A stretch of DNA of 64,000 bases. Origin: Candidatus Gottesmanbacteria bacterium RIFCSPLOWO2_01_FULL_43_11b (GTDB lineage: Bacteria; Patescibacteriota; Microgenomatia; UBA10105; UBA927). The DNA lies in the NCBI GenBank assembly GCA_001780985.1, contig MFJV01000001.1, forward strand, positions 37,466 through 101,465, written 5' to 3'. Shown piece by piece: positions 24,454 to 62,182 of this stretch (its first letter is position 1; every line of letters starts with the position of its first letter). A program made the translations under genes and the position numbers. The notes under the pieces were generated by a model. It searched no databases. It had not been told where the DNA came from and saw only the letters and a program-made list of their open reading frames with translations.

Positions 24454-25038
24454 ATGAAATTTTTCTTATCTATTATTTCATTTCTTCTTGCCGGATATTT
24501 TTTTGCAACCGCAATACACGCGGATGAATTTATTATTGAAGGCAATGCAGATGGAAGTGAAAATTCCATAAACTTCGAGTCGTCTTCACAAACAAACGTC
24601 ACGCAATCTAACCAAATGGATGTAAATAACCAAGTTGATGCCGATGCCAACACAGGTGGGAACAACACTGATGGTGGTTCCGTAGAAACCGGCGATGCGT
24701 CGGTCTGGGTACAAATCAAAAATTTCTTTAACTGGAATCAAGCAGATGTTGACGACTGTTGCCCGGAAGGCGTTACGCCAACCCCAACAGTCTACGATCC
24801 CGGTAAACCCACACCAACACCAACCACAGCCCCTGGAGTTGGAGGACCAGGACCATCCAATGGAGATGGCGGAAATGGTGGGGGAGGAAACGGTGGAGGC
24901 GGTGGTGCCGGAGAAGTACTTGGACTTTCAGCTGCAGCGGGTGAACCGACGACAGAAATCCTCTTCTACACTTTGGGTGCGCTATGCCTAGCCCTCGGAG
25001 GCGCCATGTTGCGCCAACCAAAAAATCTTCTCTCATAA
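24454..25038 (+). CDS. Small secreted repeat-family protein (one module) with a PT/Gly linker and a C-terminal hydrophobic anchor; paralog 3
   Basis: Signal peptide. Module NADGSENSINFES...DADANTGGNNTDGGSVETGDAS...DDCC. C-terminal TM plus RQPKN. Confidence 0.5.
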   Translation: MKFFLSIISFLLAGYFFATAIHADEFIIEGNADGSENSINFESSSQTNVTQSNQMDVNNQVDADANTGGNNTDGGSVETGDASVWVQIKNFFNWNQADVDDCCPEGVTPTPTVYDPGKPTPTPTTAPGVGGPGPSNGDGGNGGGGNGGGGGAGEVLGLSAAAGEPTTEILFYTLGALCLALGGAMLRQPKNLLS

Positions 25039-25643
25039 TAGCTTGGATTTCTTCCCATCGTCGCACAGTTGGTTTATGGTTTCTCATGCTCGGATTCCTT
25101 TTTGTCACGTTTCCGACTGCCTACAAAACTCTCTACACAGGAACATTAACACCTCCACAGGCTTCTCTAGAAACATCATCTTCAACAACAAACATTTTTG
25201 ATTTTGGCCCGATTCGCATTGACCAAAAACTCTTAGGTTTAACTGTTCCTTCTCAACAACCTCTTCGCATTGTGATTCCTTCGCGAAAAATTGATCTCTC
25301 TGTTGTTGAAGCACCTGTTATCAACGGGTACTGGGAACTTTCTGAAACAACCGCTTCTCATGGCGTAGGATCGGCTAATCCGGGTGAAATCGGCAATACC
25401 GTCATCTTTGCTCATGCCAGAGAGGGTCTCTTTTTACCTATTCGGGACATTCAAGTGAGTGAGGTTATCTATGTACTCACCAAAGACCGCTGGTATCGCT
25501 ATACAGTGGCTCAGACACAGCTTGTAGATCCCAATCAGGTAGAAGTTATCGCTCCCACCCCAGACGAAACGCTCACTCTTTTCACCTGCTCCGGTTTCTT
25601 CGATACCAAGCGTTTGATTGTAATTGCGAAGCCACAACGATAG
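24984..25643 (+). CDS. Sortase (second copy)
   Basis: N-terminal TM, catalytic His VIFAHA, active-site TLFTCSG. Its stop TAG lies within a REP-like element. Confidence 0.6.
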   Translation: MPSPRRRHVAPTKKSSLIIAWISSHRRTVGLWFLMLGFLFVTFPTAYKTLYTGTLTPPQASLETSSSTTNIFDFGPIRIDQKLLGLTVPSQQPLRIVIPSRKIDLSVVEAPVINGYWELSETTASHGVGSANPGEIGNTVIFAHAREGLFLPIRDIQVSEVIYVLTKDRWYRYTVAQTQLVDPNQVEVIAPTPDETLTLFTCSGFFDTKRLIVIAKPQR

Positions 25644-27675: not shown

Positions 27676-27691
27676 AAGGTTCGCATACTTC
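27675..27691 (+). repeat. REP-like palindromic element, copy e, between convergent stop codons
   Basis: CATAGAAGGTTCGCATACTTCTA overlaps the stop of 27103-27675 (+) and the stop of the RAYT gene (-). Confidence 0.8.
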
Positions 27692-28386
27692 TATTCTTCG
27701 CCTCTATCGATAATATAGTTTTCTATCACCTTCGCTTCTTGTTCTGAAATAACCGCATCCACAAACTCTTTATATCGATTCGGCAACCCCTTAAAATACG
27801 AAAGTACCAAATCCGTACTCGTTACTTGTTGGAAGGTTCGCATACTTCCAATCGCATACACACGGTAATCGCTGAATAACCAATGTTCAGGTTTCTGTAC
27901 TAACCCAGCAACTACCGGATTCAAATGAATGTACCGAACTACTTGTAAAAGATCTGGGTCGCTAGGGATATTTTTGATTTTGAATCTTCCCTGAAAAATA
28001 GCTCCTTCACGATTATACTTTTTATTAAACTTGTGGCTGTACGTAATACACAGCCTTCGCACCAACTCCGGTATTGGTTGAAAGGAGACGGGATTTGTTT
28101 CTGCTTTTTGTTGAATCAAAAGATGAAAATGATTAGGCATAAGACAATAAGCGAGTACGGAAAGTAAAGACTTAAATAATCCGTTGCTTTTTGGATCGGC
28201 TTTATACGTGACAGGAACTGGAAGGTTCGCATCCTTCTTCTCCGGAAAACCAGCAACAAGATATCGAAGAATATCTTCAAAACTATGGTAATCCTCTGAA
28301 TCTAAAAACGTTGGAAGCTTCGCGACCCCTCTGTTGTATATATGATAGACTCCGTGTTCGAAGTATTCTGGTCGAAAATGGGGCAT
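27691..28386 (-). CDS. IS200-like HUH tyrosine transposase of the REP-associated (RAYT/TnpA-REP) type
   Basis: YHIYNRG, HUH motif MPNHFHLL, and the C-terminal catalytic-Tyr region RYIHLNPVVAGLV...HWLFSDY resemble E. coli RayT/YafM. Flanked by REP-like copies at both ends and containing two more (GSMRTF, KDANLP) in-frame. Start taken at the internal ATG (MPHFRP); the TTG-extended ORF would absorb copy h. Confidence 0.65.
   Translation of the reverse strand: MPHFRPEYFEHGVYHIYNRGVAKLPTFLDSEDYHSFEDILRYLVAGFPEKKDANLPVPVTYKADPKSNGLFKSLLSVLAYCLMPNHFHLLIQQKAETNPVSFQPIPELVRRLCITYSHKFNKKYNREGAIFQGRFKIKNIPSDPDLLQVVRYIHLNPVVAGLVQKPEHWLFSDYRVYAIGSMRTFQQVTSTDLVLSYFKGLPNRYKEFVDAVISEQEAKVIENYIIDRGEE
27831..27849 (+). 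repeat. REP-like palindromic element, copy f (inside the RAYT gene)
   Basis: GGAAGGTTCGCATACTTCC, translated on the minus strand as GSMRTF. Confidence 0.8.
28220..28237 (+). repeat. REP-like palindromic element, copy g (inside the RAYT gene, C-variant)
   Basis: GGAAGGTTCGCATCCTTC, translated as KDANLP. Confidence 0.75.
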
Positions 28387-28390
28387 TAAT

Positions 28391-28409
28391 GGAAGGTTCG
28401 CATACTTCC
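28391..28409 (+). repeat. REP-like palindromic element, copy h (just upstream of the RAYT start)
   Basis: GGAAGGTTCGCATACTTCC, 5 nt upstream of the ATG. Confidence 0.8.
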
Positions 28410-28422
28410 ATCGTGTAGTCAA

Positions 28423-33149: not shown

Positions 33150-33154
33150 TTCTT

Positions 33155-33180
33155 GTCATTCCGGGCTTGACCCGGAATCC
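33155..33180 (+). repeat. Second palindromic repeat family, copy 1 (GTCATTCCGGGCTTGACCCGGAATCC)
   Basis: Stem ATTCCGGG / CCCGGAAT around a CTTGA loop, 5 nt after the rplT stop. Confidence 0.7.
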
Positions 33181-33217
33181 GCCTCATTTCCTTCTTGACC
33201 TATTATCACTCCCAGTA

Positions 33218-33243
33218 CCCCGCACAAGCGGGGTTTATTTTTT
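33218..33243 (+). terminator. Intrinsic terminator (CCCCGC-ACAA-GCGGGG + T-run) between rplT and pheS
   Basis: Perfect 6-bp GC stem followed by TTTATTTTTT. Ends the thrS-infC-rpmI-rplT unit or attenuates pheST. Confidence 0.7.
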
Positions 33244-33275: not shown

Positions 33276-34376
33276 ATGGCGGAAGAAATTATATCGGCGA
33301 CGAATTTAATTAGTTTGCTTATTCAGGCTCAAGAGGAAGCGCTTGAGCTTATTAAATCGGGTAGTAAATCAAGTGAAGAACTTCGACTGCTAATTTTAGG
33401 GGCAAAAAGCGATATCGCTCGTCTCACCAAACAAATCCGGCTTGTTTCCAAAGAAGAACGGCAAAAGGTGGGGCCGGTTGTAACTCAAGTTAAACGGTCG
33501 ATCGAAGAAGCCCTCGGACAACTACCGACCCGGAATGTATCAAAAGAATGGATTGACGTTACTATGTCCGGGATTCGTCCTCCCCAAGGGCACCTTCACA
33601 TTGTCTCGCAGGCAATCATAGAAATCACGAGAATTTTTGAGCGTATTGGGTTTACCCGCGTACGGCATCCGGAGGTTGACTGGGACTGGTATGCGTTTGA
33701 ATCCCTCAATATGCCGGCAAATCATCCGGCACGGGATGAATGGGAAACGTTTTTTATAGAGTCTTCTTTGTCATTCCGGCCGTTGAGCCGGAATCCATCA
33801 TCGAGAAAAACCCGGATCCCGGGTCGAGCCCAGGATGACAATCAGCATATTGTTCTGACTCCCCATACATCCAACGGACAGGTTCGGGAAATGGAAAAAA
33901 AGAATTTACCTATACGGATGATTAACATTGCAAAATGTTACCGCAGACAATCAGATGTATCACATGTCCCCATGTTTCATCAATTCGAGGGATTATATAT
34001 AGACAGAAGTGTTTCCATCGGGCACCTGAAAGGTGTTCTTGATTATTTTGTTAAACAATTTTTCGGGCCTCAAAGAAAGTCGCGTATCAGACCATTTCAT
34101 TTTCAATTTACTGAACCGTCGTTTGAAGTCGATATAACGTGCGGAGTCTGTTTAGGAAAAGGTTGTAAACTCTGTAAGTCCGGCTGGCTGGAATTAGGTG
34201 GTGCAGGCATGGTACACCCTGAAGTTCTCAAAAACGGTGGTATTGATCCTGAAAAATATTCAGGTTTTGCGTTCGGATGGGGAATAGAGCGAACCTACAT
34301 GATGAAAGCAGGAACACAACTAGACGATATAAGATTATTGTATTCAAACGATATACGTTTCTTAGAACAATTTTAA
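33276..34376 (+). CDS. pheS: Phenylalanyl-tRNA synthetase alpha subunit carrying an in-frame insertion of about 25 aa derived from a palindromic element
   Basis: HPARDEWETF...HVPMFHQFEGL, FTEPSFEV and GLGLERT-like motifs. The insertion SSLSFRPLSRNPSSRKTRIPGRAQDDNQ sits where E. coli PheS has only TTR. Confidence 0.85.
   Translation: MAEEIISATNLISLLIQAQEEALELIKSGSKSSEELRLLILGAKSDIARLTKQIRLVSKEERQKVGPVVTQVKRSIEEALGQLPTRNVSKEWIDVTMSGIRPPQGHLHIVSQAIIEITRIFERIGFTRVRHPEVDWDWYAFESLNMPANHPARDEWETFFIESSLSFRPLSRNPSSRKTRIPGRAQDDNQHIVLTPHTSNGQVREMEKKNLPIRMINIAKCYRRQSDVSHVPMFHQFEGLYIDRSVSIGHLKGVLDYFVKQFFGPQRKSRIRPFHFQFTEPSFEVDITCGVCLGKGCKLCKSGWLELGGAGMVHPEVLKNGGIDPEKYSGFAFGWGIERTYMMKAGTQLDDIRLLYSNDIRFLEQF
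33770..33839 (+). repeat. Inverted pair of second-family palindromic units inserted in-frame within pheS
   Basis: GTCATTCCGGCCGTTGAGCCGGAATCC (33770-33796), then a 17-nt spacer, then the reverse-oriented unit GGATCCCGGGTCGAGCCCAGGATGAC (33814-33839). Both closely match copy 1 at 33155. Confidence 0.7.
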
Positions 34377-34381
34377 AATTT

Positions 34382-36280
34382 ATGAATATTTTGGTTCCTG
34401 ATTCATGGCTTCGTGAATACCTTAAAACGAAAGCTACTCCTTCTCAAATAAAAGAGTATCTGTCGCTTTGCGGTCCTTCTGTTGAAAGGATTACTAAAGA
34501 CAGGGTCTATGAAATTGAAATCACGTCAAATAGACCGGATAGCATGTCAATTTTTGGTGTTGCGAGAGAGGCAGCCGCGATATTACCCCGCTTCGGAATT
34601 CCGGCCAAATTAGCCCTACAAGGAGTCTCCTTGAAGGGCAAGGAGAGTCACCAACGGAAACTTAAACTTACGGTAAAGACTGATTCAAAACTCAATCCCC
34701 GCTGGACATCGGTTGTGTTCGATGATGTCAATGTCGGGGTATCTCCGAAATGGCTTTCAGAGTGGTTGGAACTCTCAGGTATCAGGTCAATAAATAATGT
34801 CATTGATGTAACAAACTTTCTCATGCGCGCGTTCGGCCAGCCGGCTCATGTCTTTGACTATGATACAATCTCCGGTCACAGTATGAAACTTCGTGCTTCC
34901 AAAAAAAGAGAAAAGATTACAACGCTTGATGGAAAAACACATACGTTACCCGGCGACGACATTGTGATTGAAGATGGGTCGGGAAAACTAATTGATCTAT
35001 GCGGAATTATGGGGGGAAAGAATTCTTCTGTAACGGATAAAACTACCCGCGTCATCCTGTTTTTACAAACCTATGATCCGTCCCACATTCGGAAAACATC
35101 AATGATGGTATCACACCGTACTGAAGCTGCAAGTCTTTTTGAAAAAGGACTTGATACTGAATCTATTATGCCGGTCTTTCTCAAAGGCGTTTCCATGATG
35201 CAGGAGTTGACTGGTGGAAAAATTGCAAGCGCAGTTACTGATATGTATCCGTCACCGTACAAATCTAACATCGTTTCAGTAAACCTATCAAAAATAGTTT
35301 CATACATCGGTGATATAACAGAGGCAGAAATCAAAAAAATTCTTGAACCGTTAGGATTTACGGTAAAAAAGGATTTGCATGTTGTTGTACCTAGTTTTCG
35401 TCGTGATGTCACTCTCGATGTCGATATTATTGAAGAAATTGCCAGAATTTACGGTTATCACAACATTACATCAACTCTTCCTAAAGGAGAACTCCCAATG
35501 ACAATACAAAATCCGATGTTATTTTGGGAGGAAGAAACAAAAATTCGATTACGTGACTGGGGATACACTGAACTTTTAACATATTCCATGATTTCAGAAG
35601 AACAAATGGATACTTTTGTATTAGATAAATCTAAAGCATATAAAATATCAAATCCTTTATCCAATGAATGGCTCTATATGCGACCGAGTCTTCTTCCTTC
35701 AGTACTTTCCGCGGTCAAACAAAATTTGAATATCCGTGAAGACTTAAAGTTATTTGAATTATCGTTTGTTTATGAGCTCAGACAAAACGATTTACCTCTC
35801 GAAAAACCAATGCTCATCGTTGTCTGGACAGGGAAAAAATATCCGGAAGCAAAAGGATTAGCGGAGGCGCTTTTCGATGTATTTGGTATTCCGTTTCCGG
35901 AAGCCATCAAGGAGTATGGATCAATTGAAATACTAGCTGGTGAAATAACGGTATTATATTTGGATTTTTCCCGGCTTGTTGCAAATGCTAAGCCAATAAA
36001 AACCTACAAACCCATTCCCAAATATCCGCCCATTGTTGAAGACCTTGCATTTGTTGTACCGGAACAATTCGAAGTCGGTCCGCTTATTGCGCTACTCAAA
36101 AAAGCTCACCCACTCGTTTTTCATGTCAGCCTCCTCGACGTCCATGGAAGTATGCGAACCTTCCATATTGAATATCAGAATTCGAAGAAGAATTTAACAA
36201 ACGAATATGTTACCCCAATCCGTGAAAAACTGATTCGTCTGGCCGAAGAAAAATTTGGTGTAACAATTAAAAACCCCTAG
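34382..36280 (+). CDS. pheT: Phenylalanyl-tRNA synthetase beta subunit (compact, about 632 aa) with a 6-aa REP-derived insertion near the C-terminus
   Basis: Begins MNILVPDSWLREYL. B3/4 and B5 regions recognisable. GSMRTF at the C-terminal domain is encoded by REP-like copy i. Confidence 0.8.
   Translation: MNILVPDSWLREYLKTKATPSQIKEYLSLCGPSVERITKDRVYEIEITSNRPDSMSIFGVAREAAAILPRFGIPAKLALQGVSLKGKESHQRKLKLTVKTDSKLNPRWTSVVFDDVNVGVSPKWLSEWLELSGIRSINNVIDVTNFLMRAFGQPAHVFDYDTISGHSMKLRASKKREKITTLDGKTHTLPGDDIVIEDGSGKLIDLCGIMGGKNSSVTDKTTRVILFLQTYDPSHIRKTSMMVSHRTEAASLFEKGLDTESIMPVFLKGVSMMQELTGGKIASAVTDMYPSPYKSNIVSVNLSKIVSYIGDITEAEIKKILEPLGFTVKKDLHVVVPSFRRDVTLDVDIIEEIARIYGYHNITSTLPKGELPMTIQNPMLFWEEETKIRLRDWGYTELLTYSMISEEQMDTFVLDKSKAYKISNPLSNEWLYMRPSLLPSVLSAVKQNLNIREDLKLFELSFVYELRQNDLPLEKPMLIVVWTGKKYPEAKGLAEALFDVFGIPFPEAIKEYGSIEILAGEITVLYLDFSRLVANAKPIKTYKPIPKYPPIVEDLAFVVPEQFEVGPLIALLKKAHPLVFHVSLLDVHGSMRTFHIEYQNSKKNLTNEYVTPIREKLIRLAEEKFGVTIKNP
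36146..36164 (-). repeat. REP-like palindromic element, copy i (reverse orientation) inside pheT
   Basis: GGAAGTATGCGAACCTTCC; 18 nt in-frame, giving GSMRTF. Confidence 0.8.
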
Positions 36281-36289
36281 CCCGTACGT

Positions 36290-37483
36290 ATGAAGAAAAC
36301 CATTGTTGTTGGTGTAACCGGAGGGATTGCGGCGTATAAGATGGTTGAGCTTGTCGAAAAATTGAAAACACAGGGAAATCGGACGGTTGTGGTCATGACA
36401 CCGAGTGCGATGAAGATTACATCCTCCAAAGATTTTGAAAAAGCATCCGGAGAAAAAGTCATCAGTGAATTATTTCAAAAAAACTTTGATTACAGAAAAA
36501 TACTGAAAGCGCGAAAAGTCGAACATATTAGTTTGGTACAATCAGCCAATCTTATTGTTATCGCTCCGGCAACAGCAAATATCATTGCAAAACTTGCGCA
36601 GGGAATTGCAGATGATTATCTAACCACAAGTATACTTGCTGCAACATGTCCTATTATCATTTGTCCTTCGATGAACGTGTATATGTGGCATCATCCTGCA
36701 ACGCAAAAAAATATTTCAATTCTTAAATCTTTCGGTTACCACATTATTGATCCTGATTCGGGAATGCTTGCATGCGGCTATGAAGGGCAGGGAAGGCTCG
36801 CAGCAATCGAAACGATTTTGCAGCAAATTAACAATTTAACAAAATTAACGAAACAACTTCAAGGGAAAAGGATAGTAGTTACCGCCGGCGGAACCAGGGA
36901 ACCGATTGATGATGTCCGCTTTATTACGAATAAAAGTTCAGGCAAAATGGGAGCTGCAATTGCCGAAAGCGCGTATTTGCGGGGAGCTGATGTATTGCTT
37001 CTTCGTGCAAAAACGTCTGTTAAACCGCGACTGGATATAAAGGAAAAACTTTTTGAAACTGCGGATGATTTAGAAAAATTATTATTAAAAGAAATTCGTG
37101 ACTACGATATTTGTATCCACACTGCCGCTGTGTCGGATTTTTCTATAAAGAATATTAAAGGAAAGTTATCGAGTGATGAAAAACATACGGTTATTTTAGA
37201 ACCGCGTCAAAAAATTCTTGATCAAATAAAAAGAGTAAACCCAAAAATATTTCTTGTCGCTTTTAAAGCTGAAGTCGGATTATCGGATAAACAACTCCTT
37301 GAAAAAGCGAGAAAAATTCAAGCAAACATGATTGTTGCTAATCACGTAGGCAGATCTGACCGGGGTTTCGAATCCGATAACAATGAAGTGTTTATCCTTG
37401 GTAAAACCATCCGTCATGTTCTGCTCTCCCCAAAATCTGTCGTTTCCGAAATAATACTCGATGAAATCGTTCGCGCCTGCTAA
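36290..37483 (+). CDS. coaBC: Bifunctional phosphopantothenoylcysteine decarboxylase / phosphopantothenate-cysteine ligase
   Basis: N-terminal flavoprotein domain (VGVTGGIAAYK, PAMN-like) and C-terminal CoaB domain. Confidence 0.85.
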   Translation: MKKTIVVGVTGGIAAYKMVELVEKLKTQGNRTVVVMTPSAMKITSSKDFEKASGEKVISELFQKNFDYRKILKARKVEHISLVQSANLIVIAPATANIIAKLAQGIADDYLTTSILAATCPIIICPSMNVYMWHHPATQKNISILKSFGYHIIDPDSGMLACGYEGQGRLAAIETILQQINNLTKLTKQLQGKRIVVTAGGTREPIDDVRFITNKSSGKMGAAIAESAYLRGADVLLLRAKTSVKPRLDIKEKLFETADDLEKLLLKEIRDYDICIHTAAVSDFSIKNIKGKLSSDEKHTVILEPRQKILDQIKRVNPKIFLVAFKAEVGLSDKQLLEKARKIQANMIVANHVGRSDRGFESDNNEVFILGKTIRHVLLSPKSVVSEIILDEIVRAC

Positions 37484-38207
37484 TATCAGTCTCATTTTCA
37501 AAGCACTCAAACGCGGATCTCTTGGGGTGGGATTTACCGTGGATAAAGGGGTAACTGCCGAAGTTTATCCGTCAAAAAAAACAAAGATATTTTTTAATGG
37601 TAAAAGAATACTTTTTCCAACTGTTGAAGCAATCCTCACAAAACCAACAAAAGTATTGTTGAAATCTGATTTGCCTCTGGGAGCAGGATTTGGGTTAAGC
37701 GGGGCTTCTGCATTTGCTACAGCTCTTGCGACTCGCAATAAAACAAAACTCGAATGCGCAAAAATTGCACACCGGGCAGAAGTAAAAAATAAAACCGGAT
37801 TAGGCGACGTCGTGAACCAATATTACGGAGGATTCTTAGTAAAACGGGTTTCAAGTGCAAAGTTTCAAGTGCAGAGAATTCCAATCAAGAATATTCCCCT
37901 GTACTGTATTTCTTACGGAAAACTTCTTACGTCTTCTATATTGCAAAACGAAAAACTCATCAAACGAATAAACATTGCTGCAGACAGTGCACTTGAAAAA
38001 ATTAATCGAAAAATGAAGCTTGCTGAAATTCTTACTGTTGCAAAAAAATTTGCGATCGAAAGCGGACTATTAACGTCGAAAAGAGTAATACATTTAATTG
38101 AGAACGTTGAAAACCGAGGCGGACATGCATCGATGATAATGTTAGGAGAAGGAGTCGTCAGTGATATTCCGTTTGAAGGAGCGATAAAACTTATGGTGTC
38201 GGGGTAG
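37461..38207 (+). CDS. GHMP-family small-molecule kinase, translationally coupled to coaBC (candidate pantoate/pantothenate-pathway kinase)
   Basis: PLGAGFGLSGASAFATALA matches the GHMP ATP-binding motif. 23-nt overlap with the coaBC end. Confidence 0.5.
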   Translation: MKSFAPANISLIFKALKRGSLGVGFTVDKGVTAEVYPSKKTKIFFNGKRILFPTVEAILTKPTKVLLKSDLPLGAGFGLSGASAFATALATRNKTKLECAKIAHRAEVKNKTGLGDVVNQYYGGFLVKRVSSAKFQVQRIPIKNIPLYCISYGKLLTSSILQNEKLIKRINIAADSALEKINRKMKLAEILTVAKKFAIESGLLTSKRVIHLIENVENRGGHASMIMLGEGVVSDIPFEGAIKLMVSG

Positions 38208-40758
38208 GGGTGGGGGTACTGTAGGGTTGGTTGACACCTATACGAACTTGGGTTTCGGCGCTTCTTCCGGAATTATCATACGCTTTTGCTTTAATCGTGT
38301 GATTGCCGTTGCTCATTGAAATCGTTTCCGTGATTTTATTGGATGACCTGTCCTTGACAAGGCTTCCGTCAAGGTAAAGTTCAATTTTTGTAATATCACT
38401 GTTGCTTCCTGCCTCAGCTACGACTTTCACATTATTATCATTGACCTGCGACGTATCTCCGGGTTCTTTAATGGAAACCACAATATCTTCTGCACCGGAG
38501 GCAACTTCTGTTGGGGGATGGAACTTGCTATCTGATTGACTGGCTACCCAGGCATCAATTGCTTCCTGCCATCTGTTTTTTCCGTCAGTTGAAACCGGAT
38601 CATCTTCTTTAAATACAACAAATGATTTTGCATCATATTCACCTTTTGCAATATCAACGCTGCTTGCAAGTTTATTGCTGTCTTTCCTTGAAATTTTAAG
38701 CTGCTGGTAAATATATGCAGGTCCGGTTGGTTCTGTTCCCCGAATAAATAGCTCTTTTCTCGTCGCACTTCCCTCAAATGGTAATCCTCCGCCATAGGCG
38801 TCTACGTCTATTTCAACAATTGAATCCGGTCGTCGAAATTGTTCATCGGGAATATCTTTAATCACTTCCCGCATGATACGGTTCCAAATGGGAGCCGCAC
38901 CGGTAACTCCGGATGCTAACGACGGATGCATGGGAGAATTGTCGTTATTTCCAACCCATGTTCCGACCACTCGTGTCGTGGTGTATCCAATTGTCCAGTT
39001 GTCGCGTTTATCATCTGTGGTTCCGGTTTTGACGGCAACGGTACTCCCGGGAATATAGAGATACGAGCGAAGCCCGAATATTTCCTTACGTGCTTCATTA
39101 TCCGAGAGAATATGGGAAATAAGATACGCAACATCTTCTTCCAAAACCCGTCTTCCGGCTATGGGTTTGTGTTCATATAAAACTTTTCCCTTCTGATCAA
39201 CGACTTTGAGGACCGATACAGGATCCATGCGATTCCCGCCGGTTGCAAGTACTCCGAAAGCTGTTGCCATGTCAATGAGCCGAATCTCACCACCGCCTAA
39301 TGTTAGGGATAATCCTATTCGCCGAATATTAGCATCGGTCGGTTCCAATGTAGTCAGCCCCATATCAAATGCTGTTCGAAGCACATCTTTGACTCCGACA
39401 AGCGCACTCACTTTAACGGCAATTGTGTTAATTGAGTTTGCCAGAGCAAAACGGAGTTGTATTGGTCCGCGGAATTTACTATCGTAGTTTTTTGGATTAT
39501 ATTCCGGCTTTACCGGATCACCGGAGGGATATTTCGTATCAACGTCTAAAAGAAGCATTGAGGGGGTATATCCTTTTTTAAATGCAGCAGCATAGGTTAT
39601 TGGTTTAATTGAACTTCCCGGCTGCCTCAATCCTTGGGTAACCACATTAAACATGAGTCCACCGCTATCGGTTGCCACGTAATCTTTACTTCCTACCATT
39701 GCCAAAATTTCACCGCTTGTTGCGTCTGTGACAATTGCAGCACCGTTACTTACCTTCAGTCCTTTGGCTTTATTAACTTCTTCTTTAACAATAGTTTGGG
39801 CTTTTTCCTGAATTTTCCAGTCAAGAGTTGTCGTGACAATGAGTCCTCCTGAATCAACTGCCTTTGATCCTAATTTTTCAACGAGTTGGTCGCGGACATA
39901 GGCGACAAAATGAGGCGCACGTAGCCCCACATCACCTTGAGTAAATTGAACTTTTTCAAGCTCTTCTCTTATTTGTGTTTCTTGAGTAGCTGAAATATAG
40001 CCATCCTCACGCATCCGTCGAAGAACTGCTTGGCCGCGGTTTACATATGCTTTATCTTCACCGGTAAAAGGGGAATAGCGTGATGGCGCTTGAGGAAGTC
40101 CGGCTAAAATAACAGACTCAACTAACGTAAGATCATGTACTGGTTTTGCAAAATAGTATTCAGATGCCGCAACGACTCCGACAGCGGTTCCGCCGTAGGG
40201 CGCTTCGTTGAGATACATTTGCAAAATTTCATCTTTGCTGTATTTTCGTTCAATTTGAATCGAAAGAATTGCTTCTTTAATTTTTCTGGGCAGCGTACGT
40301 TCCTGGGTAAGGAGCGCGTTTTTCACCAATTGCTGGGTTAGCGTTGATCCTCCCTGACAGCGCCTGGTTAATACACAGGAAACTAGTCCTCTGACAATTC
40401 CTGCTGTCGATAGCCCCTGATGTTCGTAAAAACCTTTATCTTCTATTGCAACGGTTGCGTCTTTAAGGTGTTGGGGGATATCTTCTGCTTTAACTGGGAT
40501 TCTATTTTCGTTTTCAAAAATATCGTAGAGTTTTTCGCCGTTTCGATCGAGGATTTCCGTTGACAGTCCTTCAACGCGTCGTACTTTATCAGGGCGGGGG
40601 AGGTCTTTAGCGTACCAGGCAAACATGATGCCGGTCATAAGTGTTAAACCTACAATTGCAAGAAATCCTACTGTTGCAACACTGGACCAAAATTTAAGCC
40701 GTGCACTCCTCGTTCCGAACATCCTCTTCCTCTGCCGCTCCATAAAGTAATCGTACAT
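38191..40758 (-). CDS. Class A penicillin-binding protein (glycosyltransferase plus transpeptidase) with C-terminal Ig-like and Pro/Thr-rich extensions
   Basis: N-terminal TM. GT51 motifs (EDKGFYEHQG, RQGGSTLTQQ). Transpeptidase SSIKP, SxN and KTGT. C-terminal PYSTPTPTPTP. Confidence 0.85.
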   Translation of the reverse strand: MYDYFMERQRKRMFGTRSARLKFWSSVATVGFLAIVGLTLMTGIMFAWYAKDLPRPDKVRRVEGLSTEILDRNGEKLYDIFENENRIPVKAEDIPQHLKDATVAIEDKGFYEHQGLSTAGIVRGLVSCVLTRRCQGGSTLTQQLVKNALLTQERTLPRKIKEAILSIQIERKYSKDEILQMYLNEAPYGGTAVGVVAASEYYFAKPVHDLTLVESVILAGLPQAPSRYSPFTGEDKAYVNRGQAVLRRMREDGYISATQETQIREELEKVQFTQGDVGLRAPHFVAYVRDQLVEKLGSKAVDSGGLIVTTTLDWKIQEKAQTIVKEEVNKAKGLKVSNGAAIVTDATSGEILAMVGSKDYVATDSGGLMFNVVTQGLRQPGSSIKPITYAAAFKKGYTPSMLLLDVDTKYPSGDPVKPEYNPKNYDSKFRGPIQLRFALANSINTIAVKVSALVGVKDVLRTAFDMGLTTLEPTDANIRRIGLSLTLGGGEIRLIDMATAFGVLATGGNRMDPVSVLKVVDQKGKVLYEHKPIAGRRVLEEDVAYLISHILSDNEARKEIFGLRSYLYIPGSTVAVKTGTTDDKRDNWTIGYTTTRVVGTWVGNNDNSPMHPSLASGVTGAAPIWNRIMREVIKDIPDEQFRRPDSIVEIDVDAYGGGLPFEGSATRKELFIRGTEPTGPAYIYQQLKISRKDSNKLASSVDIAKGEYDAKSFVVFKEDDPVSTDGKNRWQEAIDAWVASQSDSKFHPPTEVASGAEDIVVSIKEPGDTSQVNDNNVKVVAEAGSNSDITKIELYLDGSLVKDRSSNKITETISMSNGNHTIKAKAYDNSGRSAETQVRIGVNQPYSTPTPTPTP

Positions 40759-48475: not shown

Positions 48476-49125
48476 ACATTACGATCCTTACTCTCTTCCC
48501 CGACATGATACGTTCGGCGTTAAACCACTCGATAATAAAACGGGCACTAAGTGCAGGTATACTCAAAATTACACTCGTTAATATCAGGGATTTTACGACT
48601 GACTCGTATAAATCGGTTGACGATCATCCCTATGGCGGGGGAGTCGGAATGATCATGCGCGTTGATGTTATTGACAGAGCACTCCAAAACCAGCGAGGGA
48701 AAAAAATCCTTCTTGATCCGCAAGGAAAACAATTTACACAAAGCACAGCCCGAAAGCTAAGTAAACTTGAAACTATAATACTAATCTGCGGGCACTATGA
48801 GGGAGTTGATGAGCGGGTTCGATCTATCGTTGATGAACAAATCTCCATCGGTGATTATGTTTTAACCGGTGGTGAAATTCCTGCACTTGTTGTTGTTGAC
48901 AGTGTTGCACGGCTTATTCCCGGTGTTTTATCAAAAGAAGAAGCGACTATCCACGAGTCTTTTTCCCCAAAACTCCTTGAGTACCCTCAATACACCCGGC
49001 CAGATGAGTACAAAGGAATGTCCGTTCCTGATATTCTCAAAGGTGGCAACCATGCCCAAATTGCAAAGTGGAGAATAGAACAAGCGAAAAAGAAAACATT
49101 ATCCCGCCGCCCTGATCTGGGTTAG
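48472..49125 (+). CDS. trmD: tRNA (guanine37-N1)-methyltransferase
   Basis: TLFPDM, ICGHYEGVDERV and GGE motifs of TrmD (SPOUT). Confidence 0.85.
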   Translation: MNITILTLFPDMIRSALNHSIIKRALSAGILKITLVNIRDFTTDSYKSVDDHPYGGGVGMIMRVDVIDRALQNQRGKKILLDPQGKQFTQSTARKLSKLETIILICGHYEGVDERVRSIVDEQISIGDYVLTGGEIPALVVVDSVARLIPGVLSKEEATIHESFSPKLLEYPQYTRPDEYKGMSVPDILKGGNHAQIAKWRIEQAKKKTLSRRPDLG

Positions 49126-49859
49126 GGGGCGAAGGGGTCAGGTTTGGCGATACCAATTGATGGAGGGGGCAGTTCCGTAGCTTGGGTAAGATTTGGGAGT
49201 GCTGCTACTTTTGCGATAACTTCTTCTTCCTCTGTTGATAGTGGAGATAGCTTTGCTTGTGCACTCGCTGCTCCAATTGAAAGTGGAGCAAAGTAACTTT
49301 CCATTTCTATTTTTGCCTGTACGTTTCCTGATACGCCGAGAGCCAGGTCAAAACTCTTAATTCCCATAAATCGACGAACTCTCCCTATCGTCTCAAAAAA
49401 TTGCAATACATTTTCTATGGGGCCGTCGATAAGCGCTGAAAACTGAACTGCTTTAGCACCAGAAGAATGTGCAGGCGATTTCTGGGCGGATTCCGTTGAT
49501 AATGATCCTCCTCCTGAGAGAGATACATTGAGTAAACTCACTCCGGACTGTCCGCTTACCCCCTCAAGTGTTACAAAAAGGGTCGGTACTGATGTTGTTG
49601 TTGGGACAGCAGCGCTCATTTCAAAAAGATCGCTTTTAAGAGACTCGCTGCTTTGTGAATTGAGGATATTCATTTTGTCAGAAAGATCGTTCATGTCTTT
49701 TTGAACGGTACTTTGCTGACCAAAAAGATTTATAGAAGATTGAATCGCCGGAATTATGCCAAAGATAGTTCCGAAAAAAATGACCAACAAAACAACAATC
49801 TGCCGAAGGAGCGGCTGGTATTCCCGAAAAAAACGGCGCTGTTCAATAGAAAGTTTCAT
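49122..49859 (-). CDS. pilO: Type IV pilus inner-membrane assembly protein PilO-like
   Basis: N-terminal TM plus coiled coil. Position after pilM-pilN. Confidence 0.5.
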   Translation of the reverse strand: MKLSIEQRRFFREYQPLLRQIVVLLVIFFGTIFGIIPAIQSSINLFGQQSTVQKDMNDLSDKMNILNSQSSESLKSDLFEMSAAVPTTTSVPTLFVTLEGVSGQSGVSLLNVSLSGGGSLSTESAQKSPAHSSGAKAVQFSALIDGPIENVLQFFETIGRVRRFMGIKSFDLALGVSGNVQAKIEMESYFAPLSIGAASAQAKLSPLSTEEEEVIAKVAALPNLTQATELPPPSIGIAKPDPFAP

Positions 49860-50398
49860 AAAACCGGAATAAATGTAATAACTAAACGTGATATTCCTTC
49901 TTTATCAATCCCAAATGAAGAAACTTGGGGACTGAGAATTTTTTTATTCTCTGTATCGGTTAATATCTCTGCAAGTATTGGGAACATTTCTTCAGTCGTA
50001 TTTGTTTGTATAGTCGCAACGACACGCCGTTTCGCATCAACTGCGATGGAAGATAGTGCCGGGGGAGGGGCTATTTCTGTCATTCGTGATAATGTTGACC
50101 CCCAATGTATCTGATCTTGTATAATTTTTCCTACAATTATGCCTCTTTGTTTAAGAGCCACAAGAAGTGCTTCTGCCTCCGCTTGTGCAGTAATTTGGGA
50201 TCGGAGTCTATCCCGTGCGCTTGTTAGTGTTGTTAAACGGAGCCTAAGGACTGCATACACTCCGCCAACGAGTAAACTAACGATCACAAAAATAGTTAAC
50301 CCGGTAACTGTAGTCTTTTGAAGGTTACCAATAAGATGAGAAAGACTCCCGGGAATCTTTGTTTGAGTAATGAGATTTATGGAACGGTTTTCTTCCAT
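49856..50398 (-). CDS. pilN: Type IV pilus assembly protein PilN-like
   Basis: Single TM, coiled coil, coupled to pilM. Confidence 0.5.
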   Translation of the reverse strand: MEENRSINLITQTKIPGSLSHLIGNLQKTTVTGLTIFVIVSLLVGGVYAVLRLRLTTLTSARDRLRSQITAQAEAEALLVALKQRGIIVGKIIQDQIHWGSTLSRMTEIAPPPALSSIAVDAKRRVVATIQTNTTEEMFPILAEILTDTENKKILSPQVSSFGIDKEGISRLVITFIPVL

Positions 50399-50417
50399 GT
50401 TGATTTGTATCTTTTAT

Positions 50418-51437
50418 TTACCGTAATGACAGTCCAACGGCAACGCTAAACACAGGGCCTTGTGAATCAAGTGCTGTGAACCTATTGTCGCGTTTTATTC
50501 CAATCCATGGATTAACCAACTGGGTCTCTATATTCATCTCGCTTGCTATATACACAACCATTCCGGGAACTTTTGACGTACCTCCAGAAAGAATAATAAC
50601 CTCTACGTGTTGATTGGGGTGTTCCTTTTCGTAAAATGCAATTGCCCGTTTCATTTCTCCGATAATAGTATCCATAATTGGTTTTACCGCCTCAACAATT
50701 TTTCCCTCCAGCTTATTTGTTTCTAATCCATAGATTTTTTTGTATTCCTCAGCCTGTGAAATATCAAATTCAAGCCGTTGAGCAAGCGCTCTCGAAAGCG
50801 CTTCACCACCGCTACTTATCGAACGTGTAAATGATAGAACTCCGTCTTCTAAGATGGCAAAGTCAGTGGTTTGAGCGCCTAATGAGGCAACCATCACGGT
50901 TCGAAGTGATGGCGTGGTTCTGATTACAGCGCGTGAGGCTGCAATAATTTCCGTTTCCACACCGACAGGTGTAATTTCAGCAAGTTCTAAAATTGTTAAG
51001 TACTTTTCCACTAAAACTTTAGGAGCAGCAACAAGGAGTGCTTCCATTGTTGATTTACCCGTTTGTTTACTATCGCGCAAGATTGTAAAGTCTAAATTTA
51101 CCTGATCAAGAGGAAGTGGAATATACTGTTCAGCTTCCCATCGCATGGCAGAAGAAAGTTCACGAGCAGATAGTTGCGGTACTGCGATAACTCTCGTAAA
51201 TACCTGTGATTCGGGGAGTGCCACATTGGCATCCCGGCTTTTGGCTCCGATATCTTTCAGGAGTTTTTTAAGTGCTACTGCCACTGCTTCGTAATCAACG
51301 CTGCTATTACTGCTTAATGCTCCGGGTGGTGTTGGAATTGATCCAGCAGAAAGAAGAGACGCTGTTTTAATATCTTTTGATATCTCCACGACTTTAATGC
51401 TATGAGAACCAATATCAACCCCAAGTATTGCATTCAT
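50418..51437 (-). CDS. pilM: Type IV pilus assembly ATPase-fold protein PilM
   Basis: Actin-like/FtsA fold start ILGVDIGSHSIKVVE. Confidence 0.75.
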   Translation of the reverse strand: MNAILGVDIGSHSIKVVEISKDIKTASLLSAGSIPTPPGALSSNSSVDYEAVAVALKKLLKDIGAKSRDANVALPESQVFTRVIAVPQLSARELSSAMRWEAEQYIPLPLDQVNLDFTILRDSKQTGKSTMEALLVAAPKVLVEKYLTILELAEITPVGVETEIIAASRAVIRTTPSLRTVMVASLGAQTTDFAILEDGVLSFTRSISSGGEALSRALAQRLEFDISQAEEYKKIYGLETNKLEGKIVEAVKPIMDTIIGEMKRAIAFYEKEHPNQHVEVIILSGGTSKVPGMVVYIASEMNIETQLVNPWIGIKRDNRFTALDSQGPVFSVAVGLSLR

Positions 51438-51461
51438 ATGGGCAGTCTGACAGCTATCTTT

Positions 51462-52286
51462 TTAGTAGCCAAATGAACTCTGACTATAGACAGCTGCGTC
51501 GAAAAGAGTGGGGGCGGAGGTGTATGTGTTGTCGACAACCACCTTTCTGGTCACACCTGTTTGGGTGGTGCCGACAGATTCTATCCGGCTTCCTTGAAGA
51601 GGGAGGCCTGATCCTGAACTGAAGGCAAATTGTGCATCCGCATAGACTGGGCGAAATCGTAATGCTATTAGAATATCCTGATTTGGTTGTATACTGTAGG
51701 AGGCAAATGAGAGTGTTTTTTTGTGGACATTCTCGAGTCCACATCCGGTACTTGCGGAAGAAATTTTTGTAAAATTATTGGTGTCAGCTCGTGATGAGTC
51801 AGGGTCAAATGCATCCCGGGCGACTTGGTAGGTTCCGTCAGCAGAATTCCTATATAAAAGTGAAATGACAACTGCAGTCTCGGGATTTCCCCGGCTCCAA
51901 CAGATATCGATGTTATCTCCTCCGTAGGTCACAATTTCAGAGATTGTTCCATCGGCATTATGTTCCACAAACCAGAATGTGTCTGTTGCTGCAATTGGCG
52001 TCTTTTTGGGAAATTTATAATCACCGATAACTCCACCCAAAGCATTTACTGTCGTTGTGTAGGTAATCCCTGATGTTAAAACTTGTGCGCCTGCTGTTCC
52101 TTGACCGCTTCGGAGAGCTTCTTCGATGCCTGCCTCAGCAGCTGAGAAAGCCCGTGCTGATTCTTCAACTTGGCCGCTTATTGATGTATCAATGGTTGTT
52201 CTGCCGATAACAGAGAGTGCGACGGTTACCCCAACAGCTAATACGAGAAGTGTAATAAGGACGATTTGTCCAGATTGTCTTTTCAT
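51462..52286 (-). CDS. Pilus-associated protein with a pilin-like hydrophobic N-terminus but no Glu+5 (PilX-like?)
   Basis: MKRQSGQIVLITLLVLAVG. Located between pilM and the pilin array. Confidence 0.35.
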   Translation of the reverse strand: MKRQSGQIVLITLLVLAVGVTVALSVIGRTTIDTSISGQVEESARAFSAAEAGIEEALRSGQGTAGAQVLTSGITYTTTVNALGGVIGDYKFPKKTPIAATDTFWFVEHNADGTISEIVTYGGDNIDICWSRGNPETAVVISLLYRNSADGTYQVARDAFDPDSSRADTNNFTKISSASTGCGLENVHKKTLSFASYSIQPNQDILIALRFRPVYADAQFAFSSGSGLPLQGSRIESVGTTQTGVTRKVVVDNTYTSAPTLFDAAVYSQSSFGY

Positions 52287-52307
52287 ATTTTTATTGTATA
52301 ACACTTT

Positions 52308-52850
52308 TTACTGCCGCGTCACAACAGTTGTTTGAAACTGTGTACTGGCCTTTTCAAATTGAGCTTCCGGCGTTCCAAGTTGTGATAGGGTAAACAGTAT
52401 TTGAATCTCCTTTTTTTCCTCGGCAATATCAGTGCAGATAAATGTGAGTGCGTTCGTACAAGAACTACCTAACGTAACGTTCTGATTTGTCAGGTATTCG
52501 GTTCTTGTTGCGCTTGTCGACGCAATACGTGCAATGGTGCCGTCCATTTGGCAGTCAAATGTTGTCGAATTTCCGTCAGTATTTAATAGTGAGAGGGATG
52601 ACGTTGTGGTACCCCCGGAACTACATGTCGTCGTAACCGATGAGGCATTTCGAATCATTCGTGACATCACGCTTAATGAGAAATCTCCGTTTTGCTTAAC
52701 CGTCGTCAAAAGATTTGTTTTGATATTAGTTCGCACCATGCTAAAAAAGCTTTGAGCAATCACCGAACCAACAATAGCAATAATACCCACGGAAACCAGT
52801 ATTTCAATAAGGGTAAAACCCCGCCAGTGGGCGGGCTGGCTTTTTTTCAT
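52308..52850 (-). CDS. Type IV prepilin-type protein (class III signal RG|FTLIE)
   Basis: MKKSQPAHWRGFTLIEILVSVGI; cleavage motif and Glu+5. Confidence 0.65.
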   Translation of the reverse strand: MKKSQPAHWRGFTLIEILVSVGIIAIVGSVIAQSFFSMVRTNIKTNLLTTVKQNGDFSLSVMSRMIRNASSVTTTCSSGGTTTSSLSLLNTDGNSTTFDCQMDGTIARIASTSATRTEYLTNQNVTLGSSCTNALTFICTDIAEEKKEIQILFTLSQLGTPEAQFEKASTQFQTTVVTRQ

Positions 52851-53275: not shown

Positions 53276-53289
53276 AAGAAAACATTCTG

Positions 53290-55322: not shown

Positions 55323-55324
55323 AT

Positions 55325-59300: not shown

Positions 59301-59311
59301 TTCTTGTTAAC

Positions 59312-59836: not shown

Positions 59837-59903
59837 AAAATTTACCTCTACATTTAGGTCTATCAGTCTTTGTACACCCTTGTCAAGTCCCTAAATTACT
59901 CTT

Positions 59904-61115: not shown

Positions 61116-61121
61116 AGGGTA

Positions 61122-62177: not shown

Positions 62178-62182
62178 AAATA

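What the first reader, a model, noticed from the sequence alone, without database searches (positions are those of the whole stretch)
36290..38207. GHMP kinase fused in operon with coaBC: possible archaeal-type pantoate kinase route to CoA
The ORF at 37461-38207 has the GHMP ATP-binding motif (PLGAGFGLSGASAFA) and overlaps the coaBC stop by 23 nt. No panK/coaA-like gene is in the window. In archaea a GHMP-family pantoate kinase replaces pantothenate kinase. A bacterium with a minimal genome carrying such a gene coupled to coaBC would indicate an archaeal-like CoA pathway.
Basis: inference. Interest (0 to 1): 0.5.

Follow-up and report, generated by a model that had tools for sequence, protein, structure and literature searches.

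The report
Archaeal-type pantoate kinase beside coaBC
A tiny-genome groundwater bacterium (Candidatus Gottesmanbacteria) carries, overlapping its coaBC gene, a clear relative of the archaeal enzyme pantoate kinase, so it probably makes coenzyme A the archaeal way, although the partner enzyme (PPS) was not found in the 82 kb of its contig that I could read.

Summary
coaBC (36290-37483) and a 248-aa GHMP kinase ORF (37461-38207) overlap by 23 nt, the motif PLGAGFGLSGASAFA is present, and no PanK-like gene was found among the window ORFs scanned.

The kinase is an ortholog of archaeal pantoate kinase (PoK):
- Its best profile is NCBIfam pantoate kinase, E=2.8e-37, against ThrB at 2e-5.
- Its only full-length PDB match by sequence is T. 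kodakarensis PoK (6JBC).
- An AlphaFold model (pLDDT 96) matches 6JBC far better than any other GHMP kinase.
- Six of seven residues I recall as functionally important in TkPoK are identical. The seventh is R->K across the whole family.

In related CPR bacteria (Levybacteria, Microgenomates) and DPANN archaea, the same gene sits in a (panB)-coaBC-PoK-PPS cluster. That ties the family to the archaeal phosphopantothenate route.

The window's own clade (Gottesmanbacteria-type, down to about 50% identity) always shows pheS-pheT-coaBC-PoK. Where downstream sequence exists, a convergent PBP1A gene follows. There is no PPS or panB in the roughly 82 kb of this contig that I read. I could not determine whether PPS lies elsewhere in the ~1 Mb genome.

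Verdict: a new member of a known enzyme family in a lineage where no searchable paper reports it. The pathway claim is only partly supported.

The parts
37461..38207 (+). Pantoate kinase (PoK) orthologue, GHMP family, 248 aa. A shortened version of the ~278-aa CPR/DPANN form, differing by loop deletions only.
   Evidence: NCBIfam NF040725 pantoate kinase E=2.8e-37. PDB 6JBC E=1.8e-19 over residues 3-241. Family profile against PDB: 6JBC 2.4e-31, next-best homoserine kinase 1.2e-8. AF2 model pLDDT 96.1; Foldseek top hit 6jbc at E=2.1e-18 and TMq 0.83, next 4.4e-10 and 0.64. Residues S20, S80, H104, E107, D116, K128 and T157 align with TkPoK S28, S104, H131, E134, D143, R155 and T186.
37674..37718 (+). 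GHMP motif II (phosphate-binding loop), PLGAGFGLSGASAFA
   Evidence: Translation. Lies within the PF00288 match. G76, G78 and S80 are invariant, and the rest of the loop is invariant or nearly so, across 60 family members.
36290..37483 (+). coaBC: bifunctional phosphopantothenoylcysteine synthetase/decarboxylase, 397 aa. Its last 23 nt overlap the PoK start.
   Evidence: TIGR00521 370.5 bits against a cutoff of 219.7; PF02441 plus PF04127. coaBC lies directly upstream of PoK in all 5 loci of the window's clade and in 31 of 58 other loci with enough upstream sequence.
37461..37483 (+). 23-nt coaBC/PoK overlap, a probable translational-coupling junction
   Evidence: Coordinates. Relatives show a 26-nt overlap (L010), 4-nt overlaps (L012, L014-L016) or a 1-nt gap (L001, L007).
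33276..36280 (+). pheS (33276-34376) and pheT (called 34382-36280), the upstream genes of the probable pheS-pheT-coaBC-PoK transcription unit
   Evidence: Pfam families in the gene table. There is a 9-nt gap between pheT and coaBC. A terminator-like hairpin sits at 33217-33234 before pheS, and none was found on the + strand between pheT and the end of PoK. The same order occurs in L010, L013 and L036.
38191..40758 (-). Convergent class A penicillin-binding protein (PBP1A-like). It occupies the position where PPS sits in related clusters, and its 3' end overlaps the PoK 3' end by 17 nt.
   Evidence: ORF. Transgly + Transpeptidase + Big_7 domains. The same convergent gene follows PoK in L010 and L036.

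Best explanation
The ORF at 37461-38207 is an orthologue of archaeal-type pantoate kinase. It uses a nucleoside triphosphate to phosphorylate the 4-hydroxyl of pantoate, giving 4-phosphopantoate. A phosphopantothenate synthetase (PPS) encoded elsewhere in the ~1 Mb Gottesmanbacteria genome would then join this to beta-alanine to give 4'-phosphopantothenate, the substrate of CoaBC, whose gene overlaps the kinase gene by 23 nt.

The pair is the conserved core of a (panB)-coaBC-PoK-PPS cluster shared by Microgenomates-group CPR bacteria and DPANN archaea. In the window's clade that core sits behind pheS-pheT and is probably co-transcribed with them and translationally coupled.

Shown: family membership, fold, residue conservation, and the operon context in relatives. 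Inferred: substrate, a PPS elsewhere in this genome, co-transcription.
For: Identity of the kinase:
- Profile hits: pantoate kinase NF040725 at 2.8e-37 and NF041122 at 8.6e-26, against ThrB at 2e-5 and archaeal shikimate kinase at 4e-4, with MvK and IspE weaker still.
- The only significant PDB match by sequence is TkPoK 6JBC, over nearly the full length. With the family profile, 6JBC scores 2.4e-31 against 1.2e-8 for the next hit.
- The AF2 model (pLDDT 96.1, pTM 0.92) has 6jbc as top Foldseek hit at E=2e-18 and TMq 0.83. All other GHMP kinases have E of 4e-10 or weaker and TMq of 0.59-0.72.

Genomic context in relatives:
- PoK-panB-PPS in L006.
- coaBC-PoK-PPS with 4-nt overlaps in L014-L016.
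- (panB)-coaBC-PoK-PPS in Levybacteria, including the complete chromosome CP066685.1, in Microgenomates and in Woesearchaeota.
- PPS is in view in 51 of 61 non-window-clade loci that have downstream sequence.

No sign of a changed substrate:
- All seven TkPoK-equivalent positions are conserved in both the PPS-linked clade and the window's clade. K128 in place of Arg155 is family-wide.
- Only three mild positions separate the clades: L/C at 11, L/I at 191, A/S at 194.

The gene is maintained:
- The same pheT-coaBC-PoK synteny holds down to about 49-53% identity, with all motifs intact.
Against: - No PPS (PF02006) or panB was found in the 64-kb window, in 10 kb beyond its end, or in 8 kb before its start.
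- None of the 4 distinct PoKs of the window's clade with downstream sequence has PPS in view, against about 51/62 in the other clade (Fisher p=0.0019). This probably reflects a single ancestral event.
- Two PPS searches of the large protein database returned no hit on contigs of 1,020,299, 111,984 or 1,142,061 bp. Calibration shows this absence carries no information.
- The NCBIfam score of 128 bits is far below the equivalog cutoffs of 380 and 500. PoKs that are unambiguously PPS-linked also score only 145-178 bits.
- A source of pantoate (panB, panE) and of beta-alanine is not evident in a ~1 Mb genome.
- No enzyme of this CPR/DPANN clade has been assayed.
Confidence: 0.62

Rival explanations
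1. PoK-derived pantothenate kinase. In the Gottesmanbacteria-type clade the ancestral cluster lost panB and PPS. The retained kinase then phosphorylates scavenged pantothenate directly, acting as a GHMP-fold 'fourth type' of PanK, and hands 4'-phosphopantothenate to the co-translated CoaBC.
For: - coaBC-PoK is kept as a tight pair while both flanking cluster genes are missing in every locus of this clade.
- No PPS or panB in about 82 kb of this contig.
- The direct product of such a kinase would be exactly CoaBC's substrate, which would explain the 23-nt coupling.
- Episymbiotic, reduced CPR genomes generally scavenge vitamins (general knowledge).
- The window's sub-lineage has a 6-aa deletion in the loop just after N-terminal motif I, a region that contributes to substrate binding in GHMP kinases (general knowledge).
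- From memory, unverified: TkPoK was reported to show weak activity on pantothenate.
Against: - There is no clade-specific change at the seven functionally mapped positions, and only three conservative discriminating positions.
- The loop deletion is confined to the window/P0003 sub-lineage. It is absent from other PPS-less members such as P0059 and P0011.
- Elsewhere PPS is often displaced by 1-3.4 kb or sits on the opposite strand (L023, L026, L032, L069, L087, L106-L108), so relocation is common.
- The rest of the genome was not searched.
Confidence: 0.2
2. Relic of a decaying pathway. PPS and panB were lost, and the kinase is a non-essential or soon-to-be-lost leftover carried along in the pheST-coaBC operon.
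For: The protein is about 30 aa shorter than most relatives. Partner genes are not in view. One public assembly shows coaBC split by a frameshift (L005).
Against: - The ORF is intact, with all motifs and catalytic residues conserved across the clade down to about 50% identity.
- The model is confidently folded, pLDDT 96.
- The identical protein occurs on 8-13 independent contigs.
- Reduced CPR genomes rarely keep useless genes (general knowledge).
- The L005 split is a single case among otherwise intact copies.
Confidence: 0.06
3. A different GHMP kinase (homoserine, mevalonate, shikimate, IspE or galactokinase) that merely neighbours coaBC.
For: Only the generic Pfam GHMP_kinases_N domain passes a curated threshold. 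Weak NCBIfam hits to ThrB, archaeal shikimate kinase and MvK exist.
Against: Those hits have E of 2e-5 or weaker and cover only the motif-II region, whereas PoK scores 2.8e-37 across the full length. PDB sequence, profile and fold searches all rank PoK first by 8-23 orders of magnitude. Operon linkage to PPS, panB and coaBC holds across about 95 loci.
Confidence: 0.02

Closest known systems
Thermococcus kodakarensis pantoate kinase TK2141 (PDB 6JBC/6JBD; COG1829)
   Same: GHMP fold. The alignment runs nearly the full length (residues 3-241 against 5-269). Motif II is shared, as are residues aligning with S28, S104, H131, E134, D143 and T186. It is the best hit by sequence, by profile and by structure.
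   Different: Only about 26% identical. The window protein is 248 aa against 300 aa. Lys replaces Arg155, as it does in the whole CPR/DPANN clade. The host is a bacterium. It scores far below the NCBIfam equivalog cutoffs.
(panB)-coaBC-PoK-PPS clusters of Levybacteria and other Microgenomates (CPR) and of Woesearchaeota (DPANN), e.g. CP066685.1, MFPD01000001.1, JACPMX010000014.1
   Same: PoK is 40-50% and CoaBC 47-57% identical to the window's proteins. The tight coaBC->PoK junction is the same.
   Different: Those clusters carry PPS immediately downstream of PoK, and often panB upstream. The window has pheT upstream and a convergent PBP1A gene downstream, with no PPS or panB in view.
PoK/PPS pair reported in sponge-symbiont Entoporibacteria (Thomes & Lescure 2020, PMC7883664)
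   Same: A bacterium carrying the 'archaeal' pantoate kinase alongside a bacterial-type CoaBC. Public records annotate the protein only as a GHMP kinase or as hypothetical.
   Different: A different phylum (CPR rather than Poribacteria). In Poribacteria both PoK and PPS were found and PanK/PS were shown to be absent genome-wide. Here PPS is unconfirmed and PanK/PS status is unknown.
Bacterial pantothenate kinases CoaA (type I), type II, and CoaX (type III)
   Same: They would supply the same product, 4'-phosphopantothenate, to CoaBC. coaBC-linked kinase genes are a familiar arrangement.
   Different: No sequence or fold relationship. The window protein matches none of their Pfam or NCBIfam models.

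Membership tests
Pantoate kinase family (PoK; COG1829 sense) | GHMP kinase superfamily fold with the phosphate-binding motif II | tested here: met
   PF00288 36.8 bits against a cutoff of 22.3. The AF2 model (pLDDT 96) matches GHMP kinases.
Pantoate kinase family (PoK; COG1829 sense) | Closer to characterised PoK than to any other GHMP subfamily, over the full length | tested here: met
   NCBIfam PoK 2.8e-37 against ThrB 2e-5. PDB 6JBC 1.8e-19 with no other real hit. Family profile 2.4e-31 against 1.2e-8. Foldseek 2e-18 and TMq 0.83 against 4e-10 and 0.64.
Pantoate kinase family (PoK; COG1829 sense) | Conservation of residues found important by TkPoK mutagenesis (S28, S104, H131, E134, D143, R155, T186). 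The list is recalled from Tomita et al. 2012 J Bacteriol; the paper is not held in the library. | tested here: met
   Six of seven are identical (S20, S80, H104, E107, D116, T157). R155 is replaced by K128, which occurs in 119 of 120 family members, including the PPS-linked ones.
Pantoate kinase family (PoK; COG1829 sense) | Genomic association of orthologues with phosphopantothenate synthetase and other CoA genes | tested here: met
   PPS is in view in 51 of 61 loci outside the window's clade. coaBC and panB are frequently adjacent.
Pantoate kinase family (PoK; COG1829 sense) | ATP-dependent phosphorylation of pantoate to 4-phosphopantoate | not testable with these tools
   Needs an enzyme assay. 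No member of the CPR/DPANN clade has been characterised, as far as the searchable literature shows.
NCBIfam equivalogs NF040725 (methanogen-type PoK) and NF041122 (Thermoplasmata-type PoK) | Score at or above the curated equivalog cutoff (380 and 500 bits) | tested here: not met
   128.2 and 90.9 bits. PPS-linked CPR/DPANN PoKs and a Hydrothermarchaeales PoK also fail, at 145-178 bits. These are narrow lineage models, not tests of the wider family.
Complete archaeal-type phosphopantothenate route (PoK + PPS) | A PPS gene (PF02006) in the same genome | tested here: inconclusive
   Absent from about 82 kb of the 112-kb contig. The remaining ~0.9 Mb of the genome could not be reached.
Complete archaeal-type phosphopantothenate route (PoK + PPS) | Absence of the bacterial PanC/PanK pair from the genome | tested here: inconclusive
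   None among the scanned ORFs of the window. The rest of the genome was not searched.
Pantothenate kinases, types I-III | Homology to CoaA, eukaryotic-type PanK or CoaX | tested here: not met
   No Pfam or NCBIfam hit to any PanK model at E<=1.

The most novel reading that the evidence does not exclude
In the Gottesmanbacteria-type clade the PoK orthologue has lost its PPS partner and serves as a GHMP-fold pantothenate kinase. That would be a fourth, unrelated type of PanK. It would let these ultra-small episymbionts turn scavenged pantothenate into CoA using only a translationally coupled kinase-CoaBC pair.
Probability: 0.18. Interest if true: 0.75.

Novelty: new member of a known kind. Interest (0 to 1): 0.45.

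Why it matters
The PoK/PPS route has been treated as a marker of archaea. Its discovery in a single bacterial group (Entoporibacteria) was published in 2020 as unexpected (PMC7883664).

The evidence here shows the same enzymes in a dedicated (panB)-coaBC-PoK-PPS cluster in Microgenomates-group CPR bacteria. The cluster is shared with DPANN archaea from the same groundwater habitats, at 42-49% (PoK) and 57-70% (PPS) identity. That is a concrete case of inter-domain exchange of a cofactor pathway between the two ultra-small radiations.

For annotation, thousands of 'GHMP kinase' or 'hypothetical' proteins in CPR genomes could be named.

The Gottesmanbacteria-type clade, which keeps only coaBC-PoK, poses a sharp and cheap question: is PPS elsewhere in the genome, or has a GHMP kinase become a pantothenate kinase? 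The answer bears on how CPR symbionts obtain CoA and which vitamin precursor they must take from their hosts.

Tried and rejected
- Looked for PPS, PanB, PanC, PanK, CoaD and CoaE in the window by Pfam (5 batches) and by tblastn with a CPR PPS and PanB. Nothing found.
- Extended the source contig (ENA ERZ4903072 k141_3137113, 111,984 bp) by 10 kb downstream and 8 kb upstream. No CoA genes. A first upstream attempt failed because the ORF start was wrong.
- Tried to detect a PPS in the same genome by matching the 'longest_contig' values of PPS hits to the 1,020,299-, 111,984- and 1,142,061-bp contigs. There was no match. Calibration on 20 PoK/PPS pairs showed the expected PPS identity (58-66%) sits right at the top-120 list cutoff, so I rejected this as evidence of absence.
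It was useful for context but says nothing about Gottesmanbacteria.
- Looked for clade-specific substrate-pocket changes that would support a switch to pantothenate. Only three conservative positions differ.
- Treated the sub-threshold NCBIfam score as possible evidence against PoK identity. Rejected, because PPS-linked PoKs and an archaeal PoK also fail the cutoffs.
- The primary PoK papers (PMC3457225, PMC2788864) are not held in the library. Residue roles and any weak pantothenate activity of TkPoK are therefore from memory only.
- The promoter scan was at background level, 18 found against 17.8 expected, so I made no promoter claim.
Full report
**Observation.** The window contains coaBC at 36290-37483 (+, 397 aa) and a 248-aa ORF at 37461-38207 (+). 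They overlap by 23 nt in different frames. coaBC is complete and bifunctional: TIGR00521 scores 370.5 bits against a cutoff of 219.7, and both the Flavoprotein and DFP domains are present. The second ORF carries the quoted motif PLGAGFGLSGASAFA at residues 72-86, inside a significant Pfam GHMP_kinases_N match (PF00288, 36.8 bits against 22.3). Its start codon is supported by the shared MK..AFAPANIS N-terminus of homologues and by independent gene calls on public contigs. Pfam scans of 52 window ORFs found no PanK of any type, and no PanC, PanB, PPS, CoaD or CoaE. 'Fused' should read 'overlapping'.

**Organism.** The kinase protein is identical to EKD66901.1 and OGG23662.1, which a source names Candidatus Gottesmanbacteria. 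It is seen on 8 contigs, the longest 1,020,299 bp. The window itself is part of ENA contig ERZ4903072 k141_3137113, which is 111,984 bp. Gottesmanbacteria belong to the Microgenomates group of Patescibacteria/CPR. The window's gene content fits that: sortases, a 1,840-aa SpaA-repeat protein, a type IV pilus cluster and translation genes.

**What the kinase is.** Four independent comparisons identify it as a pantoate kinase (PoK).
1. NCBIfam: pantoate kinase NF040725 scores E=2.8e-37 over residues 3-233 and NF041122 scores 8.6e-26. ThrB (2e-5), archaeal shikimate kinase, mevalonate kinase, galactokinase and IspE score far lower and cover only the motif-II region.
2. PDB by sequence: the only real hit is T. 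kodakarensis PoK 6JBC, E=1.8e-19, residues 3-241 against 5-269. With a 60-sequence family profile, 6JBC scores 2.4e-31 and the next hit, homoserine kinase, scores 1.2e-8.
3. Structure: an AlphaFold2 model (pLDDT 96.1, pTM 0.92) finds 6jbc first at E=2.1e-18 and TMq 0.83. Every other GHMP kinase has E of 4e-10 or weaker and TMq of 0.59-0.72.
4. Residues: the seven TkPoK residues I recall as functionally important from mutagenesis (S28, S104, H131, E134, D143, R155, T186; from memory, as the paper is not held) align with S20, S80, H104, E107, D116, K128 and T157. Six are identical. The Arg-to-Lys change occurs in 119 of 120 relatives.

The score of 128 bits is far below the NCBIfam equivalog cutoffs (380 and 500). 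PoKs that sit next to PPS in CPR, in DPANN and in a Hydrothermarchaeales archaeon also score only 145-178 bits. Those cutoffs define narrow lineages, not the family.

**Context in relatives.** The protein has more than 500 database relatives, most of about 278 aa. The window's version differs only by short loop deletions.
- L006: a 52%-identical homologue lies in PoK-panB-PPS (PF02548, PF02006).
- L014-L016: a 50%-identical one lies in coaBC-PoK-PPS, with 4-nt overlaps at both junctions.
- A scan of species-representative genomes with that PPS returned 19 loci. A tblastn map shows (panB)-coaBC-PoK-PPS in Levybacteria (MFPD01000001.1 and the complete 762,565-bp chromosome CP066685.1), in a Microgenomates MAG, and in several Woesearchaeota/Nanoarchaeia MAGs.
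- CP066685.1 is unmistakably bacterial: dnaG and rpoD follow the cluster.
- The Woesearchaeota contig L031 looks archaeal: it has a Hel308-type 'archaeal helicase domain 4' protein and tRNA genes of 97 and 87 nt.
- A metagenome scan added 80 loci. Over all loci, PPS is in view in 51 of 61 non-window-clade loci that have at least 900 nt downstream of PoK.
- Sixteen PoK hits sit on contigs of the same length as contigs carrying PPS hits, and five more such matches appear.

This context firmly links the family to the PoK/PPS route.

**The window's own clade.** A neighbour-joining tree places the window protein in a clade with P0002-P0012, P0059 (Gottesmanbacteria RBG_13_45_10) and others. No member of that clade is known to share a contig with PPS. 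Every locus from this clade shows coaBC-PoK (window, L010, L012/L013, L036, L041, L045). pheT lies directly upstream of coaBC wherever upstream genes were examined (window, L010, L013, L036). A convergent PBP1A gene follows PoK in the window, L010 and L036. This holds down to about 49-53% protein identity, so the arrangement without PPS is old and stable.

None of the four distinct clade members with downstream sequence has PPS in view, against about 51 of 62 in the other clade (Fisher p=0.0019). These cases are not phylogenetically independent and probably reflect one event. In this contig, PPS and panB are absent from the 64-kb window, from 10 kb beyond its end and from 8 kb before its start.

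**PPS elsewhere, or a changed function?** I could not search the remaining ~0.9 Mb of the genome.

Indirect evidence favours an unchanged function:
- All seven mapped residues are conserved.
- Only three conservative positions separate the clades: L/C at 11, L/I at 191, A/S at 194.
- Elsewhere PPS is often displaced by 1-3.4 kb or inverted (L023, L026, L032, L069, L087, L106-L108), and some other-clade loci also lack it in 10-kb flanks (L001, L007, L063, L098, L100). The cluster is therefore fluid.

The alternative remains open. A clade that has lost both flanking cluster genes, yet keeps the kinase translationally coupled to CoaBC, may use it on scavenged pantothenate. I put about 0.62 on canonical PoK with PPS elsewhere, about 0.2 on a shift to pantothenate, about 0.06 on a relic, and about 0.02 on another GHMP function. 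The remaining ~0.1 is not assigned to any named reading.

**Expression unit.** A terminator-like hairpin lies after rplT at 33217-33234. None lies on the + strand between pheT and the end of the kinase gene, and the pheT-coaBC gap is 9 nt. That suggests a pheS-pheT-coaBC-PoK transcript, which is an inference. Promoter-like matches were at background level.

**Comparison with what is known.** PoK and PPS were described as archaeal replacements for PanC/PanK (reviewed in PMC6650551). The only report of them in bacteria in the searchable library concerns Entoporibacteria (PMC7883664). Of the 22 papers that mention 'pantoate kinase', none concerns CPR. No paper combines 'pantoate' with 'Candidate Phyla Radiation', and the one listed paper that combines it with 'Patescibacteria' is unrelated. 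Annotation pipelines, however, already label CPR homologues 'pantoate kinase' (JGI) and 'phosphopantothenate/pantothenate synthetase' (NCBI). The finding is therefore a new member of a known enzyme family in a lineage where the literature has not discussed it. It is not a new kind of system.

**Verdict.** Interest is moderate (0.45). It rests on the CPR-DPANN shared cluster and on the testable question raised by the clade that lacks PPS.

Noticed in passing
window 33153-33180; 33768-33797 and 33814-33841 (inside pheS, 33276-34376): A ~28-nt palindromic element (TTGTCATTCCGG-N7-CCGGAATCC) sits just after rplT. Two further copies lie in opposite orientations inside the pheS coding sequence. There they form an in-frame insertion of about 22 aa (LSFRPLSRNPSSRKTRIPGRAQDDN) that is absent from the pheS of relatives L010 and L036. 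This resembles Rickettsia-palindromic-element-type insertions in an essential gene (2 pattern matches against 0.07 expected).
   Followed up: partly
L017-L035 (e.g. L030 7989-10714; L031 7969-10627): A (panB)-coaBC-PoK-PPS cluster is shared by true CPR bacteria (L030, followed by dnaG-rpoD) and DPANN archaea (L031, with a Hel308-type helicase and long tRNA genes). PoK is 42-49% and PPS 57-70% identical across the two domains, which implies inter-domain transfer of a CoA-precursor module.
   Followed up: partly
L001 11093-12601; L007 11329-12837: In another lineage whose coaBC-PoK pair lacks PPS (1.14-Mb contig), the next gene downstream is an archaeal-type PEP carboxylase (PF14010 PEPcase_2). 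This is another archaeal-flavoured gene in a CPR-like bacterium.
   Followed up: no
L005 980-2171 (equivalent to window 36290-37483): One public assembly of the same population (ANAN16-1 scaffold_133270) has coaBC split into 232-aa and 168-aa ORFs, although the translated segments are 100% identical. This is either a frameshift variant or an assembly error.
   Followed up: no
window 38191-38207: The 3' end of the PoK gene overlaps the 3' end of the convergent PBP1A gene (38191-40758, -) by 17 nt, leaving no intergenic space for a terminator. Relative L010 shows a similar overlap, while L036 has a 67-nt gap.
   Followed up: no
L026, L027, L035 (genome contigs records CAYXZV01, CAYIKX01, CAYNCK01): MAGs titled 'uncultured Methanosarcinales archaeon' carry PoK/PPS loci of the Woesearchaeota/CPR type: L035 has panB, coaBC, PoK and PPS in that order; L027 has coaBC-PoK-PPS; L026 has PoK on the opposite strand about 1 kb from PPS. 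PPS is 62-64% identical to the L006 PPS. The taxonomic labels look doubtful.
   Followed up: no
window 12250-17772, 18669-19280, 24984-25643; 49122-63901; 27691-28422; about 5232-5510: Other window content: a 1,840-aa SpaA-repeat surface protein with two sortases; a large type IV pilus gene cluster (PilB/T/C/M, prepilin peptidase, several pseudopilins); an IS200-like Y1 transposase; and a HicAB toxin-antitoxin pair. All are typical of CPR genomes.
   Followed up: no
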